Shown in pieces: positions 24,751-32,812 of a stretch of 64,000 nucleotides of DNA. Both the position numbers and the translations under genes were made by a program. Every line of letters begins with the position of its first letter. Position 1 is the stretch's first letter. The notes below the pieces were generated by a model that was not told where the DNA came from, did not search any database, and worked only from the letters and a program-made list of their open reading frames with translations. This DNA is from the human T2T-CHM13v2.0 reference genome, Homo sapiens: the NCBI RefSeq assembly GCF_009914755.1, contig NC_060935.1, one strand, 5' to 3'.

Positions 24751-27700
24751 CATGTCATCAGTGTAAGTGTTAAATGTGTAGGATTAATTGGAAAACCCTT
24801 GTTGTAAAGGTCATGTTTGTAGTCCTTTTCAAATCTTCAATGAGCAGACTGGATTTGAAAAGTGTTCAAATAGATCCCATCAACTGGTAAAGACTCCCAG
24901 GAAGTAGGGACTTTGATCACTGTGGAGAAACACAGGGAATAAAGATAAATTGGTGGTCATGCTTCCATTAACTACATCTCTGGATTCTTTAAAGAAAAAA
25001 TTCGAGTGTTTACTTTCTTTTTTGGTTTAAGTAAAAATTGATTAATTGTTGCTGAGTACTTTCATAGCTTGCGTAGTCACCATTTCAAAATATGAAGATA
25101 CTCTGATGGTCTGAACTCATTCTGAGCAAAAACATTGTCTTGAATAAGAAATAACAATTTTTCGTTGTATTTATGTAAAGGTTGAATTTTGGGATTAAAA
25201 TTAGAAGCATAAGTTCAGCTGTTTATAGTTACAGGAGTTGAGTGTTGAAGCCCACAATGATTAAACTAAAGACACTTAGATTAAACTTAACCAATTTTTA
25301 ATTGTCTTTAGAAAAGTACATCTGCTACTTGGGTGCCAGAGAGTGAGACTAAGTATCCCTGTATAAGTTCCACTCAAGGGGTCATGGAGGAAAAGAAAGA
25401 GAGAGAGAGAGAGATGGGTTTATATGGGTTTCTGGAACAATCAGCTAATAGAAGTAACTGTGAAGTTATCCTAATTGTTCCCCTCTACCCCAATATTAAG
25501 CTTGCCCAAATAACTTATAATTGAGAACATTGTTTGTTTTAAACTAAAATGATGCTTGTCTCATTTTTCCACTTGTGTTATAGTATAAACCTAGCTTGCC
25601 TGTATTTACCACATCTAGGTCTGTACTGGGCTTAAGTTAACGGGTAGATTGAACAGAGCTGAAGCAGACAAGAAGAACTAGCTACAGGCCCTTCCCCCTC
25701 CATGTGGTCAAAAAATAATTTTCTCACTTAAATTTTTCTGTTTTAAATTTCCAGAAACATGGATTCAGACACACTGCAAACCTTCCAGAGGGAGCTCTGT
25801 TGCTTTATCTGCAGGAACTACTTAACGGACACAGTCACCATTGACTGTGGGCATAGCTTTTGCAGGCCCTGCCTTTGTCTACGCTGGGAGGAAGGCCAAG
25901 CTCCAAAGGGCTGTCCTGTGTGTGGGAAAATCCCCCAGAAGACTGACTTCAACACCAATATTGTTCTCAAGAAGTTGGCTTCTCTTGCAAGGCAGCGCAG
26001 ACCTCACAACATCAACAGCTCAGAGAAGCAGATCTGTGTGCTACATGAAGAGGAAAAGGGGCTCTTCTGTGAGGCAGAGGAGAGACTCCTCTGTGGGCCC
26101 TGCTCTGAGTCACAAGAGCATGAGGCTTATGGCCACAGCCCAATAGGATGGGCTGCTGAGGAGTGCAGGGTAAGTGACACCTCCAATGCAACCGGGAATC
26201 CACATGATCCTAAATGAGAGAGAAAATGAGAGCTTATGATAATAAAGGTGGAGAGAATGGAGATGGTGAGGTTCTGAATTTTCAATATAAATCTCTAGAT
26301 ATAAATGTGTCCTAGGAACACGGTTTGTTTTTGCTGCAAGCTTGACTTCCCCAGAGCCAGGATATATGAAATCCAATTTCTTAAAAAATTGATTAGCTGT
26401 TGGGTCTCCTCAAACTCTCTATTATATGTTTCTGTTACCTCTTATATTCCAAATATTAAAATCAAATTAGGTTAACTTGTAAAAACTCTGACCACTTCAG
26501 GGGGACTCAAATTTACCATTCTCTCAACAACAGGCTTTTCTCATAAAAAGGGAATAACATATCCAGTAACGTCGTATCTGCTACTAAAGGTCATGTCTAT
26601 TTTGCAGGAGAAACTTCTGAAGAAAATGGATCATTTATGGAGGAGCACTCAAGAAATGCAAAACAATCTAAATCAGGAAATTAGCAAAATCCATTCATTA
26701 ACGGTAGGGATAAAAAGGTTTTATATTTTTAAAGTAGATTGGCACAATGCTAACTTAGACTTCTTAGCTGAATTCTGCTTACCAGTTAAAAAATAGTAGT
26801 GTCCTCTTCCCAGAAAAAAACAAAACAGTGGTTTCAAATGATATATCAGCAATTATCATTATACAGGCCAACAGGAGCTGGTGCAAAAAATACTAGTATG
26901 TACATGTATATGAAATAAACAGGGCATGATAGTTATTCCTGATGTAACCTTGAGGGTTTAGATAAAACTTCCAAGGCACTGAGAATGGGATAGCATTGAA
27001 CTGTTTAAAGCGTTGTATTCACATCAAGTAGTTTAAAGTTTTGCTGTGAAGGTGAGGAGAGAAATAGAGAAATTAGTGGGGAAAACAAAACCTGAAGTAA
27101 TTTCTTTAAAAACTCAGTGGTAGAGCGTATACTGAAATATTTAAAAATGTTTAGAAGGATCAGGCAAAGGAACAAGAGAAAATTAAGAAGAACCAGGTAA
27201 AAAAGACAATAATTAATGAAGTAAGAATCCTGTAGAAGCATCACAGGCAGGGATCTTGAGTCCTTTTGAGGTACTGATTTATACAGGAAGGGAGACTAGG
27301 AGGAACATGAAGAAAGGATGGGTAGAGGAGACTAGCAAATCTTCAAGAACCTTTTCAAGTATGAGACACAGAGCTTAGGAGTTTACTGCTTGCATATCCT
27401 AGGAGAATAACAGTTGAAGTGTTAAGTGTTTTGTTGAGAGTGAGGAGATGCAATTCTTTTAACTGAGTATCTCTGCAGGACTATGTGGCCCTCAGGAAAG
27501 GGATGATCAGATAACAATATCAGAAGTTGCGCCAATTTCTCCTGGAGGAGGAGCAACGCCATCTGGAGACAATGGACAGAGAAGCAGAAGAGATTGTTCG
27601 ACAACTCCAAGACGGTGAAGTAAGAATAACCCAACATATAAAAAAGACGAAAGGCATGTACAGAGAGCTGTGGGAGATGCGCCACATGCCGGATGTGAAG

Positions 27701-28399
27701 CTGCTCCAGATGAGGAGGGAGGGTCCATCATCCAGAGTCAGGAAGACTTTGTTGGGCAATGCTGCCAGGACATTCATATGCTACCTGCAAATGTAACTAC
27801 TCTTAGAAAGTGACACATGCTCCTTGACTCTGTCATTGCGTTTGTCCAGTGACTTATTTTTGCATATTCTGGTAATCTTTGGGAGATTTTTGCCATTTTG
27901 GTAGATCACGTAGGACAAAATCCTCTTCAGTATAATCAGAAGTACTAGCCACAAAGAAATGTTATCCAAAATCAACCAAATGCTAGGCCAGGAGAATATT
28001 AGCTTTGTTAATAAAACTCAATTTAAGTTCCCTAGTACGTCCTCACTTCTTGGGATTAAGCCTGGGAGATGAGTGACACTGAGAACTAGATAGCTGTGTA
28101 CATCACTCCACAGTCTTATTCTCAGCTCCTTCATTCCTAATGCCCACTGAGGAAGACCACCATGGTTCAGCTGAGGTTCTGTTATTAACACAGCCTTGGA
28201 TGGTGCCTTAGAGGTGTATCAATAAACCTACCTTGTTAACCCAGAAAAACAACAAAGAATACTAGGGAAAGTAGGACAGAATTCTCATGATTAAGTACTT
28301 GTGTTTTTCTTTGCAGGACTTGGAAAACATACTGGAATGGTGAGTTACACTAATGAACTTTGATTGCTGAGAAAGTCATTCCCTTATTGATAAAGTCAA

Positions 28400-28912
28400 T
28401 GTACCCTTGAAAGTCAATGTACCATTGAAAAAGGTGGGGATTACGTTCACTAACCACCTTCATGCAATTCCACATAGTTGAAAACCCAAGTATAACTTCT
28501 GACTTTTCCAAAACCAAACTACGAATGACCTCTTATTGACTGGAAGCCTGTTGATACCATAAACAGTCAATTAACATATATTGTATGTTATATGTATTAT
28601 ATGCTGTATCCTAACAATAAAGTAAGCTGGAGAAAAAATATAATTGAGAAAATTGTAAGGAAGAGAAAATAAATTTATTACTCATTAAGAAGTTGATCAC
28701 CATAAGGGTCTTCATCTTCATTGTCTTCACATTGAGTAGGCTGAAGAGGAGGAGGAAGAGAAGACAGTGTCTCAGCAGTGGCAGAGGCAGAAATAAAATA
28801 AATGGAGTGGGAGGCAGGAGAGGCAGGCAAGCTAGGTGAAACTTTCATTGAAAAAAATCCACTTATAAGTGGACCCCCAAATTTCAAACCCTTGTCGCTT
28901 AAGGGTCAACTA
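28400..28912 (-). mobile_element. Tigger2a/MER28-family DNA transposon
   Basis: gtcttcacattgagtaggctgaagaggaggagg...taagtggaccc...aagggtcaact terminus. Confidence 0.85.
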
Positions 28913-31428: not shown

Positions 31429-31715
31429 GGCCGGGCACAGTGGCTCATGCCTGTAATCCTCCAAGGCTGAGGCGGGCATATCACCTGAGGTCAACGGCTG
31501 GAAACCAGCCTGGCCAACATGGCAAAACCCCATCTATACTAAAAATACAAAAATGATCTGGGCATGGTGGCACATGCCTGTAATCCCAGCTACTCGGGAG
31601 GCTGAGGAAGCAGAATCGCTTGAACCCAGGAGGCTGCAGTGAGCCGAGATCGCACCACTGCACTCCAGCCTGGGCAGCAGAGTGAGACTCTGTCTCAAAA
31701 CAAAACAAAACAAAA
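31429..31715 (+). mobile_element. AluS
   Basis: Alu with (CAAAA)n tail. Confidence 0.93.
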
Positions 31716-32812
31716 GTAACAGGCACATTTTATATCCCACTAAACAAGAGCATCATAGCAGAGTGAAGTCTATTTGTTAATTATATTGAATACAAACAAT
31801 GCAAGTGGCATTTTCTACTAAATAAATAAAGAATGTTACATATCTCTTGAAACGAATCGTGCAAAGCCAGACATTAAATCATTGATTCACACAATTAATG
31901 ATATGTTTGTTTATTTGTTTTTCTGTGTGATTTTAAGGATTCTCCTGTGCTGTAGAAGTCATAATAACCCTTGATCTTCATAGATGACAGTCTCCAAAGT
32001 CTTTTTGCTCCATGTATTCTGTCTGTCACTTACAGGAGGTACAAATAAAGCCAGTACCTGGGCAGATAACATCTGACCCCCACGTAACTCCTTGATCTGA
32101 TTTTTGTTCTTCTTGCAGTGGATGATCCTCTGAGTAAGGAAAAGACGAGTCACTATATGAGCCTTTCTGAGGATGTGAGAAATGTGGTATTTGGAGATGA
32201 CCATGATGGTGCACCCGGGGAGTCCCAGAGAGCAGAGAACTTTGCAGCATGGGGAGCTCAGGCCTTCTCCTCTGGCAGGCATTACTGGGAAGTGGATGTA
32301 ACCCAGTCCTCCAGCTGGATTCTAGGAGTCTGTAAAGATTCCAGGACAGCAAACACAAATCATGTTCCTGCTTTTGAGGAAGCATTTTTTCAATTTTCTT
32401 CAAAGAGAAACAGCCTTTATAGCCTCTCCAACACCTTTCTTCCCTTAACTCACTATGTGCAAAGACCTTTGGGTCGGGTTGGGATGTTTCTGGATTATGA
32501 CAACACAGTTGTGAGCTTTTATGATGTTTCAAAAGGTTCCCTCATATACAGCCTTTTCCCTTTCTCTTTGTCTTCCCTTTTGACACCTTTCTTTTGTTTT
32601 GGTTCCCCATGAAAGTCAGGTTTCATTATGATTTCCTAGTGAGCTCTCTTGCTTGAAAAATCTTCTAATCTCGAGACCTTCTCATGTGAGACAATAGGAC
32701 AATGTGTGAGCATCTTTGAGCTCACTGTAAGTTGAGGAAACAAAATTATTATCTGGGTATGAAATGGGATAACCACATTGACATTATACATTTGTTTCCT
32801 AAATTTTACTTT

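What the first reader, a model, noticed from the sequence alone, without database searches (positions are those of the whole stretch)
25759..32612. TRIM64-like 'pseudogene' whose two lesions fall in one skippable exon, predicting a hidden 373-aa TRIM protein
Seen: the only disabling changes are TAA at 27512-27514 and a dead donor (CAG|ATGAGG at 27710), both belonging to the 231-nt phase 0-0 exon. The other five exons are open with canonical GT-AG. All eight RING ligands (CFIC...CGHSFCRPC...CPVC), a full SPRY exon (FSSGRHYWEV, VGMFLDYD) and an AATAAA are retained. Known: donor loss usually causes exon skipping, and from recall TRIM48 joins the same flanking exons (...WK|AFGD...). Inference: skipping gives 411+96+23+98+494 = 1122 nt, a 373-aa RING-B-box-short coil-SPRY protein that might be a monomer-biased or dominant-negative TRIM. 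Caveat: the B-box carries D>E and H>Y changes (CEAE..., EHEAYGH), and an open frame could simply reflect recent gene death.
Basis: partly seen in the sequence, partly recalled or inferred. Interest (0 to 1): 0.8.

Follow-up and report, generated by a model that had tools for sequence, protein, structure and literature searches.

The report
Decaying TRIM pseudogene with skippable dead exon
This is a transcribed, recently dead copy of a primate TRIM ubiquitin-ligase gene whose two defects really do sit in one skippable exon, but its only documented transcript keeps the stop codon and its sequence drifts about as freely as its introns.

Summary
There are six exons. The single in-frame TAA is at 27512-27514. 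The exon-3 donor is dead (CAG|at at 27710). Dropping the 231-nt exon leaves an open 1122-nt, 373-codon frame.

The locus is not a recent TRIM64 copy. It is 77-80% identical to TRIM64/B/C and is one of three copies of a separate lineage.
- The human-specific mirror copy at the TRIM64HP locus is about 99.8% identical and carries both lesions.
- The pericentromeric copy at TRIM64JP is about 97% identical. It has an intact exon 3 but two different stops in exon 1.

So the lineage died independently twice.

The only curated transcript (NR_169306.1) uses a cryptic donor at 27619|27620 and keeps the TAA.

On this copy's branch the retained exons changed at 12/1012 sites against 48/3418 for non-coding sites, with 10 nonsynonymous to 2 synonymous changes. 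That pattern is near neutral, but statistical power is low.

TRIM48, an active E3 ligase, carries a dead relic of the same exon in its intron.

Verdict: an ordinary known pseudogene. The hidden protein is possible but unsupported.

The parts
23213..23622 (+). Region homologous to the TRIM64 promoter and 5'UTR exon, about 2.3 kb upstream of the coding exon. The inferred non-coding first exon is roughly 23321-23439, followed by GT. A one-mismatch DUX4-like motif lies at 23212-23222.
   Evidence: blastn gives 68% identity to L003 63-460, with a pairwise alignment. This rests on homology only. The exon coordinates were counted by hand from that alignment. No transcript evidence was seen.
25759..26169 (+). 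Coding exon 1 (411 nt): start codon, RING finger and B-box 2.
   Evidence: Translation. Pfam zf-C3HC4_4 scores 32.1 bits (cut-off 30) and zf-B_box 27.1 bits (cut-off 24.1). An acceptor ccag|AAAC lies 4 nt before the ATG.
26608..26703 (+). Coding exon 2 (96 nt, phase 0-0): start of the helical or coiled-coil region.
   Evidence: It is also an exon of NR_169306.1.
27479..27709 (+). Coding exon 3 (231 nt, phase 0-0). It carries both lesions.
   Evidence: This lineage changed at 7 of 213 polarisable sites here, against 48 of 3418 non-coding sites.
27512..27514 (+). In-frame TAA (codon 181). The TRIM64JP-locus copy has TAT here and TRIM64/B/C have ATT.
27620..27625 (+). Cryptic donor gtaaga, after GAA ending at 27619. 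RefSeq NR_169306.1 uses it, giving a 141-nt exon 3 that is in frame but still holds the TAA.
   Evidence: Annotation. It is the best GT in the exon, matching 6 of 9 positions of the donor consensus. It is present in all 9 aligned copies, as GTGAGA in the TRIM64 group.
27710..27711 (+). Dead authentic donor, AT instead of GT.
   Evidence: 7 of 9 aligned copies have GT here. Only this copy and its mirror copy have AT.
28317..28339 (+). Coding exon 4 (23 nt).
30914..31011 (+). Coding exon 5 (98 nt).
32119..32612 (+). Coding exon 6 (494 nt including TGA): PRY-SPRY (B30.2) domain.
   Evidence: Pfam SPRY scores 57.6 bits (cut-off 26.3). The best solved relatives are TRIM21 PRY-SPRY chains, E = 6.5e-27, covering residues 8-161 of 163.
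32813..32818 (+). AATAAA polyadenylation signal, about 200 nt after the stop.

Best explanation
TRIM64GP is an unprocessed, still-transcribed pseudogene. It belongs to a distinct branch of the primate chr11/chr2 TRIM cluster, most likely the all-pseudogene 'E' subclade of Han, Lou and Sawyer 2011. That branch evolved as a working RING-B-box-coiled-coil-SPRY gene for most of its history.

After the African-ape segmental duplication, the two resulting copies were lost independently:
- The pericentromeric copy acquired two nonsense codons in exon 1.
- The 11q14.3 copy acquired Tyr181-to-stop and a G-to-A change at the exon-3 donor.

The already broken 11q14.3 copy was then duplicated in the human-specific mirror inversion. 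Humans therefore carry two near-identical broken copies.

Transcription continues. The splicing machinery answers the dead donor by using a strong pre-existing cryptic donor 90 nt upstream. That gives a message which keeps the stop and should be degraded by nonsense-mediated decay. Some exon-3-skipped messages with an open 373-codon frame may also arise, as in paralogs. Any protein made from them would be an unselected by-product.

Shown: the lesions, the copies, their divergences, the cryptic-donor transcript and the near-neutral substitution rates. Inferred: the order of events, nonsense-mediated decay and the lack of function.
For: - Copies: three full six-exon copies exist. The mirror copy shows 22 mismatches over about 8.5 kb and has the same TAA and AT donor. 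The pericentromeric copy is 96-97% identical, has TAT and GT in exon 3, and has TAG and TGA stops in exon 1.
- These divergences match the published 99.6% (human-only) and 96% (African-ape, about 14 My) segments.
- Long-term dN/dS against TRIM64 is 0.33. Between the two old copies it is 0.95 in the retained exons and 0.68 in exon 3.
- Polarised on this copy's branch, the retained exons show 10 N: 2 S. That fits omega = 1 (P = 0.30-0.50) and rejects 0.33 (P = 0.009-0.037).
- Branch rate is 12/1012 in the retained exons against 48/3418 in non-coding sites (Fisher P = 0.76).
- NR_169306.1 keeps the TAA through the cryptic donor.
- Under neutrality, an open and spliceable remainder has probability about 0.13-0.36. 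The dead sister copy shows the same thing.
- No paper names the locus apart from the 2011 table that lists three 'E' pseudogenes.
Against: - Power is low. With only 12 polarised changes, a moderate constraint cannot be rejected. One benchmark is the 0.63-0.69 seen between the intact genes TRIM64 and TRIM64C. Under omega = 0.65, P(N >= 10 of 12) = 0.17 and P(>= 12 changes) = 0.36.
- The ratio of changes on this copy's branch to the sister branch is lower in the retained exons (12:20) than in non-coding DNA (48:37), Fisher P = 0.096. It is higher in exon 3 (7:4).
- Both lesions lie in the one exon the family often skips (P about 0.04-0.06 by chance).
- Domain scores equal those of intact paralogs.
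- TRIM48 shows that an exon-3-less relative can be an active ligase.
- NR_169306.1 is a 585-nt partial transcript, so it says nothing about the relative abundance of isoforms.
Confidence: 0.72

Rival explanations
1. Exon 3 is skipped, and the two identical human copies encode a selected 373-aa RING-B-box-short helix-SPRY protein. This would be a TRIM48-like exon-3-less TRIM that keeps its SPRY domain and acts as a monomer-biased or dominant-negative ligase.
For: - Open 1122-nt frame.
- 5 of 25 family transcripts skip this exon.
- TRIM48 has a dead relic of the same exon and is reported to be an active E3.
- RING, B-box and SPRY score like those of intact paralogs.
- Both lesions are confined to exon 3 (P about 0.04-0.06).
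- There are non-significant trends towards slower retained exons and a faster exon 3 on this branch.
Against: - The only curated transcript retains the stop through a cryptic donor.
- 10 N: 2 S changes, and an exon rate equal to the intron rate.
- The dead sister copy is just as open outside its hit exon.
- TRIM48 lost the acceptor, which forces skipping. Here the donor was lost beside a strong cryptic donor.
- No matching protein was found, though the length window could not reach 373 aa.
Confidence: 0.1
2. The transcript itself has a non-coding function, for example as a nonsense-mediated-decay-coupled regulatory RNA or as a decoy within the DUX4-induced TRIM cluster.
For: RefSeq calls it a transcribed pseudogene with a spliced transcript. 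The gene structure and polyadenylation signal are kept in all three copies.
Against: No sequence feature points to an RNA function. Exons evolve at the non-coding rate. The upstream region keeps only a one-mismatch DUX4-like site, while three neighbouring genes have exact ones.
Confidence: 0.05
3. Translation restarts after the TAA at the in-frame Met in exon 3. This would give a protein of about 219 aa (with the cryptic donor) that has the SPRY domain but no RING or B-box.
For: The frame after the stop is open through the cryptic-donor junction to the normal TGA.
Against: This is purely a reading of the frame. Reinitiation after a 180-codon ORF is inefficient by general knowledge. There is no evidence of constraint.
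Confidence: 0.03

Closest known systems
TRIM48 (NM_024114.5)
   Same: It belongs to the same chr11 TRIM cluster and has the same exon plan. The homolog of the 231-nt exon is disabled by a splice-site change plus a frame-breaking change. The mRNA joins the 96-nt exon directly to the 23-nt exon. It is described as a DUX4-downstream E3 ligase without a coiled coil.
   Different: TRIM48 lost the acceptor (AG to CG), so skipping is obligatory and documented. TRIM64GP lost the donor, and its documented transcript uses a cryptic donor instead. TRIM48 stops at the end of the 98-nt exon and has no SPRY, whereas the hypothetical TRIM64GP product would keep SPRY.
TRIM77 isoform from NM_001271942.1, and Gnomon models of TRIM49, TRIM49C and TRIM51G
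   Same: These are exon-3-skipped, in-frame RING-B-box-SPRY messages with the same 411/96/23/98/494-500 architecture.
   Different: They are minor isoforms of genes whose exon 3 is intact. No function of the short forms was seen in any call.
TRIM64 / TRIM64B / TRIM64C
   Same: The exon sizes and phases are identical apart from 1 to 3 nt in the first two coding exons, and the domain order is the same. These are the nearest intact paralogs.
   Different: Exon nucleotide identity is only 77-80%, with dS about 0.58. TRIM64GP is a separate lineage and not a recent TRIM64 duplicate, despite its name.
Subclade E (E1-E3, predicted pseudogenes) of Han, Lou and Sawyer 2011, PLoS Genet (PMC3228819)
   Same: Three pseudogene copies form their own subclade. 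One copy per duplicated segment would fit the three copies found here.
   Different: The match to E1-E3 is my inference from the number and the pattern. The LOC and NG identifiers were not mapped to TRIM64GP/HP/JP by any search. The figures and supplements that show lesions and testis RT-PCR could not be seen.

Membership tests
TRIM / RBCC class with C-terminal B30.2 | RING signature C-x2-C-x11-16-C-x-H-x2-C-x2-C-x7-74-C-x2-[C/D] (as worded in PMC3228819, Figure S1 legend) | tested here: met
   C15-x2-C18-x11-C30-x-H32-x2-C35-x2-C38-x13-C52-x2-C55, read. Pfam zf-C3HC4_4 32.1 bits (cut-off 30) and zf-C3HC4 31.5 bits (cut-off 21). Signature text.
TRIM / RBCC class with C-terminal B30.2 | B-box 2 signature C-x2-H-x7-9-C-x2-[C/D/H/E]-x4-C-x2-C-x3-6-H-x2-4-[C/H] | tested here: met
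   C-VL-H-x7-C-EA-E-x4-C-GP-C-x5-H-x4-H. It fits only by using E at the fourth ligand and the H four residues on. The usual H at x2 is Y here and in the TRIM64JP-locus copy. Pfam zf-B_box 27.1 bits (cut-off 24.1), against 27.7 for TRIM64 and 25.3 for TRIM77. Zinc binding was not tested.
TRIM / RBCC class with C-terminal B30.2 | Long coiled coil between the B-box and B30.2 | tested here: inconclusive
   Exons 2-5 align without gaps to those of paralogs, but no coiled-coil predictor was run. The 65 residues after the stop have no meaningful solved relative (best E = 0.44). The skip product would lack 77 of these residues.
TRIM / RBCC class with C-terminal B30.2 | PRY-SPRY (B30.2) domain | tested here: met
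   Pfam SPRY 57.6 bits (cut-off 26.3). TRIM21 PRY-SPRY chains match at E = 6.5e-27 over residues 8-161 of 163.
TRIM / RBCC class with C-terminal B30.2 | Uninterrupted reading frame and usable splice sites over all coding exons | tested here: not met
   TAA at codon 181 and an AT donor after exon 3.
Recent duplicate of TRIM64 (as the gene name suggests) | Near-identity to TRIM64/B/C, comparable with other duplicates in the cluster | tested here: not met
   Exon identity to TRIM64/B/C is 77-80%, against 95-100% to the TRIM64HP and TRIM64JP loci. dS to TRIM64 is 0.58.
TRIM48-type exon-3-less TRIM | The homolog of the 231-nt exon is disabled by a splice-site lesion plus a frame lesion | tested here: met
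   TRIM64GP has donor GT to AT plus TAA. TRIM48 has acceptor AG to CG plus a 1-nt insertion in the relic, 293/312 identical to TRIM49 exon 3 with flanks.
TRIM48-type exon-3-less TRIM | The mature mRNA joins the 96-nt exon to the 23-nt exon | tested here: not met
   The only annotated transcript, NR_169306.1, includes 27479-27619 of exon 3. Read-level RNA data were not available, so minor isoforms remain untested.
TRIM48-type exon-3-less TRIM | A protein product with E3 ligase activity | not testable with these tools
   The word search with exon 1 found 9 proteins. None was human and none exceeded 76% identity. The length window of 75-240 aa cannot reach a 373-aa protein.
Unprocessed (duplicated) pseudogene | Introns retained in the parental positions, disabling lesions, and relaxed constraint | tested here: met
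   The exon-intron plan is the same as in paralogs. Lesions are shown. dN/dS is 0.95 between the old copies, with 10 N: 2 S on this branch and an exon rate equal to the non-coding rate. Power is low.

The most novel reading that the evidence does not exclude
The two near-identical human copies (TRIM64GP and the full-length copy hidden under the 412-bp TRIM64HP annotation) repeat the TRIM48 route to a new gene form. Exon 3 was killed and is skipped in a share of transcripts. A 373-aa RING-B-box-SPRY protein without most of its coiled coil would then be made in testis or in DUX4-driven cleavage-stage cells. This would be a human-lineage TRIM variant that keeps a substrate-binding SPRY domain but cannot form the usual antiparallel dimer.
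Probability: 0.1. Interest if true: 0.55.

Novelty: already known. Interest (0 to 1): 0.25.

Why it matters
As it stands this is an annotated transcribed pseudogene in a cluster already described as a factory of young TRIM genes and pseudogenes, so little changes.

Three points are still useful:
- The locus is a separate lineage with three full-length copies, two of which RefSeq annotates only as 412-bp fragments.
- The copies died independently. That gives a natural internal control for how open a dead gene of this age stays.
- TRIM48 shows that killing this very exon can leave a working ligase. The hidden-protein idea is therefore cheap to test and not absurd.

If the skipped form were real and translated, it would add a human-specific member to the DUX4 and early-embryo TRIM set. 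It would also be a second independent case of coiled-coil loss in this family.

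Tried and rejected
- A protein word search with the exon-1 translation (137 aa) gave 9 scored proteins, with 32 sample-only candidates left out. The best full-coverage hits were 65% (pig) and 64% (Saimiri TRIM64-like). None was human and none belonged to this lineage. The length window stops at 240 aa, so this says nothing about 373- or 450-aa relatives.
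- A search of solved structures with the 65 residues after the stop found only chance helical matches (best E = 0.44). It could not place exon 3 on a solved TRIM coiled coil.
- An exact DUX4-like motif search found 4 sites in the window, none upstream of TRIM64GP. It found none in loci L001-L009. In the same script, the blast of the upstream region against L001 and L002 was empty because those loci do not reach that far. I fetched L011 for this purpose but never analysed it.
- I considered 'recent TRIM64 duplicate' and rejected it on identity.
- I considered treating dN/dS near 1 as proof of death. I rejected that as too strong, because the intact genes TRIM64 and TRIM64C give 0.63-0.69.
- Literature: 'TRIM64GP' gave 0 papers. 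The six alternative names gave only PMC3228819. 'TRIM64 + DUX4 + TRIM48 + isoform' gave 0 papers. So I found no printed claim of an exon-skipped product of this locus within that library.
- What I read: for PMC3228819, section 6 in full plus passages; for PMC12524865, the abstract and passages. The other papers listed were seen as listings only.
They may show which pseudogenes of this subclade, and which isoforms, were amplified from testis.
- No primate genomes, reads or population variants were reachable. The cross-species test was replaced by a comparison of paralogs.

Full report
OBSERVATION

I read 25600-28500 and 30800-32900 and translated the exons from the window file. The six coding exons are 25759-26169 (411 nt), 26608-26703 (96), 27479-27709 (231), 28317-28339 (23), 30914-31011 (98) and 32119-32612 (494 with TGA). 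The full frame is 1353 nt with one internal stop, TAA at 27512-27514 (codon 181). The boundary after exon 3 reads CAG|atgagg. Every other boundary is AG/GT. Without exon 3 the frame is 1122 nt, open, 373 aa, with the junction IHSLT|DLENILEW.

WHAT THE LOCUS IS

Despite its name it is not a young TRIM64 copy. Exon 1 and exon 6 are 77-80% identical to TRIM64, TRIM64B, TRIM64C and the TRIM64DP/EP/FP pseudogenes. They are 95-100% identical to two other places. An 8.5-kb query covering the whole gene matches two other regions:
- chr11:89936812-89945355 on the minus strand, at 99%.
- chr11:49186463-49193812 on the minus strand, at 96-97%. That copy lacks a 1.1-kb insert.

RefSeq lists only 412-bp pseudogenes at these places, TRIM64HP and TRIM64JP. 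All six exons are nevertheless present in both.

The paper by Han, Lou and Sawyer (PLoS Genet 2011, PMC3228819; section 6 read in full) describes this cluster:
- Segment 1 on 11q14.3 is present in all catarrhines examined.
- Segment 2 at the centromere is specific to African apes, 96% identical and about 14 My old.
- Segment 3 is a human-only mirror inversion, 99.6% identical.
- It also lists a subclade E of three predicted pseudogenes.

My own figures fit this. The mirror copy shows 22 mismatches in about 8.5 kb, or 14/6000 non-coding sites. The pericentromeric copy shows 146/4848 non-coding sites, which is 3.0%. That the three copies are E1-E3 is my inference, because no call mapped the identifiers.

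THE LESIONS ACROSS COPIES

The mirror copy has the same TAA and the same AT donor. Its coding sequence differs by one synonymous base in exon 5.

The pericentromeric copy has TAT and a GT donor, so its exon 3 is intact. It carries TAG at codon 60 and TGA at codon 130, both in exon 1.

Among 9 aligned family copies, 7 have GT and a sense codon at the two sites, and only the window copy and its mirror have the lesions.

So no lesion is shared between the two old lineages. Their common ancestor, at the time of the African-ape duplication, was probably intact. Both lineages were then disabled independently. The exon-3 lesions arose after that duplication and before the human-specific one. Gene conversion could blur these dates.

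TRANSCRIPT EVIDENCE

RefSeq's only transcript, NR_169306.1 (BestRefSeq, 585 nt), has exons 26002-26169, 26608-26703, 27479-27619, 28317-28339, 30914-31011 and 32119-32177. It ends exon 3 at a cryptic donor, GAA|gtaaga at 27619|27620.

- This is the best GT in the exon, matching 6 of 9 positions of the donor consensus with GTAAG intact.
- It pre-exists in all 9 aligned copies.
- The shortened exon is 141 nt and in frame, but the TAA lies upstream of the cryptic donor. The documented message therefore contains the stop.

By the usual rule, a stop well upstream of later exon junctions should mark the message for nonsense-mediated decay. That is inference.

The transcript's size and its ends inside exons 1 and 6 suggest an RT-PCR clone. 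One possible source is the testis clones Han et al. deposited, with amplicons of 245-1368 bp. That too is inference.

Of the 25 transcript rows of this family on chr11, 5 join the 96-nt exon directly to the 23-nt exon:
- TRIM77 NM_001271942.1 (curated)
- TRIM48 NM_024114.5 (the main form)
- Gnomon models of TRIM49, TRIM49C and TRIM51G

I looked into TRIM48. Its intron between those exons still holds a relic of the 231-nt exon, at about L010 5282-5513, with 293/312 identity to TRIM49 exon 3 plus flanks. The acceptor has changed from AG to CG and there is a 1-nt insertion. TRIM48 is described as an E3 ligase with RING and B-box but no coiled coil, and as a DUX4-downstream gene (PMC12524865, abstract and passages). 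This is a genuine precedent.

It differs in two ways:
- TRIM48 lost the acceptor, which leaves no option but skipping.
- Its frame ends in the 98-nt exon, before SPRY.

DOMAIN INTEGRITY

Pfam bit scores:

| Domain (cut-off) | TRIM64GP | TRIM64 | TRIM77 | TRIM49 |
|---|---|---|---|---|
| RING, zf-C3HC4_4 (30) | 32.1 | 28.7 | 28.4 | 40.7 |
| B-box, zf-B_box (24.1) | 27.1 | 27.7 | 25.3 | 33.2 |
| SPRY (26.3) | 57.6 | 65.2 | not scanned | not scanned |

The last exon matches TRIM21 PRY-SPRY structures at E = 6.5e-27.

The B-box D-to-E and H-to-Y changes are shared with the pericentromeric copy, so they are old. The motif still fits the published signature, using E as the fourth ligand and the H four residues after the seventh ligand. 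The domains look as good as in living paralogs. That fits either recent death or survival.

TEST OF CONSTRAINT

Nei-Gojobori dN/dS:

| Comparison | dN/dS |
|---|---|
| Window copy vs TRIM64, retained exons | 0.33 |
| Window copy vs pericentromeric copy, retained exons (34.5 N and 9.5 S differences) | 0.95 |
| Window copy vs pericentromeric copy, exon 3 | 0.68 |
| Intact TRIM64 vs TRIM64C, retained exons | 0.63 |
| Intact TRIM64 vs TRIM64C, whole gene | 0.69 |

Polarising each difference with TRIM64/B/C:

| Branch | Retained exons | Exon 3 |
|---|---|---|
| Window copy | 10 N : 2 S | 6 N : 1 S |
| Sister copy | 17 N : 4 S | 3 N : 1 S |
| Unresolved | 8 N : 3 S | 0 N : 1 S |

The 10:2 count fits omega = 1 (P(N >= 10 of 12) = 0.30-0.50). 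It rejects the long-term 0.33 (P = 0.009-0.037). It does not reject 0.65 (P = 0.17).

A whole-gene alignment with six outgroup copies gave rates on polarisable columns:

| Class (columns) | Window-copy branch | Sister branch |
|---|---|---|
| Non-coding (3418) | 48 | 37 |
| Retained exons (1012) | 12 | 20 |
| Exon 3 (213) | 7 | 4 |

On the window copy's branch the retained exons match the non-coding rate. 14.2 changes are expected and 12 are seen, with Fisher P = 0.76. Under omega = 0.33, 7.1 changes are expected and P(>= 12) = 0.057.

- The ratio between the two branches is lower in the retained exons than in non-coding DNA (Fisher P = 0.096).
- Exon 3 on this branch is faster than non-coding DNA (P = 0.03-0.04).

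Both rest on a handful of changes. The sister copy's exons are also faster than its own non-coding DNA (20 seen against 11.0 expected, P = 0.009), which I cannot explain.

IS AN OPEN REMAINDER SURPRISING?

- 3.7-4.5% of random substitutions in the 1119-nt frame (the 1122 nt less the stop codon) would create a stop.
- I used the measured branch rate and the indel-to-mismatch ratio of the non-coding alignment (16 gap openings per 225 mismatches).
- The chance of keeping the frame, the eight splice dinucleotides and the ATG by luck is then about 0.13 if the gene was dead for the whole branch. It is about 0.36 if it was dead for half of it.
- The sister copy is an empirical control. It is dead in exon 1, yet exons 2-6 are open, unchanged in length and keep all their splice sites.
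- The clustering of one nonsense and one splice lesion in exon 3 has probability about 0.04, or about 0.06 for either in-frame-skippable exon. This is mild and was noticed after the fact.

UPSTREAM REGION

The TRIM64 promoter and 5'UTR-exon region aligns to 23213-23622 at 68% identity. A GT lies where the TRIM64 non-coding exon ends. The alignment shows a DUX4-like site with one mismatch at 23212-23222. Exact DUX4-type motifs occur 4 times in the window. Three of them lie 106-219 nt upstream of exons of TRIM49, TRIM53BP and TRIM51BP, and none lies near TRIM64GP. This is weak evidence that its induction may be poorer than that of its neighbours.

CONCLUSION

The most likely reading is an ordinary, already annotated, still-transcribed pseudogene. 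It is one of three copies of a TRIM lineage that was functional until after the African-ape duplication and then decayed twice, independently.

Its dead donor is documented to be resolved by a cryptic donor that keeps the stop. Exon-3-skipped messages with an open 373-codon frame are plausible as a minority, given the family's habit. A translated product cannot be excluded. Nothing I could measure shows that such a product is selected for.

I put the functional hidden protein at about 0.1. The idea is cheap to test with junction counts, and TRIM48 makes it respectable.

LIMITS

- No reads, primate genomes or population data were available, and supplements were closed.
- The protein word search cannot see 373- or 450-aa relatives from single-exon queries.
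- The rate tests rest on 12 to 48 changes per class.

Noticed in passing
L001 (chr11:89936000-89945999) and L002 (chr11:49185500-49194800): RefSeq annotates TRIM64HP and TRIM64JP as 412-bp single-exon pseudogenes. Both loci in fact hold complete six-exon copies of the TRIM64GP-type gene, with the same exon lengths and all splice sites apart from the shared AT donor in the TRIM64HP-locus copy.
   Followed up: yes
L002, exon 1 of the TRIM64JP-locus copy: This copy has an intact exon 3 (TAT, GT donor) but two nonsense codons in exon 1, at codons 60 and 130. It also has replacements at family-invariant SPRY positions, such as the Y in the HYWEV string. This is independent inactivation.
   Followed up: yes
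L010 about 5282-5513 (chr11, TRIM48 intron between the 96-nt and 23-nt exons): A relic of the 231-nt exon, 293/312 identical to TRIM49 exon 3 plus flanks. Its acceptor has changed from AG to CG and it has a 1-nt insertion. This explains why TRIM48 has no coiled-coil exon.
   Followed up: yes
window 29113-30239 (intron 4): A 1.1-kb insert that is present in the mirror copy and absent from the pericentromeric copy. An 855-nt part is 97-98% identical to dozens of places across the genome, and a 120-nt part lies inverted relative to them. The insert holds a 155-aa ORF at 29752-30219. I take it, from recall, for a young L1 fragment with an inversion. It dates between the two duplications.
   Followed up: partly
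window 13066-13076 (-), 47596-47606 (+), 58327-58337 (+), 36033-36043 (+): Four exact matches to a DUX4-type motif. Three lie 106, 109 and 219 nt upstream of exons of TRIM49 (the exon ending at 12960), TRIM53BP and TRIM51BP, in the gene's orientation. None lies upstream of TRIM64GP. The chance expectation was not computed.
   Followed up: partly
window 27479-27709 and L002 exons: On the window copy's branch, exon 3 changed at 7 of 213 polarisable sites against 48 of 3418 non-coding sites (P = 0.03-0.04). On the sister branch, the retained exons changed at 20 of 1012 sites against 37 of 3418 non-coding sites (P = 0.009-0.04). Both exon classes exceed the local non-coding rate, and I have no explanation.
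   Followed up: no
window 31429-31715 (intron 5); also 15956-16257, 19299-19602, 23644-23909, 33292-33592: Alu-like repeats. They match each other and repeats upstream of TRIM64 at 70-84% identity. I recognised them as Alu by eye.
   Followed up: no
chr11 annotation: Intact TRIM64 and TRIM64C differ by 12 N: 1 S in exon 1 (dN/dS about 3.2), and by 0.63-0.69 over the retained exons and the whole gene. Living members of this cluster evolve almost as fast as its dead ones, which weakens any dN/dS test here.
   Followed up: partly
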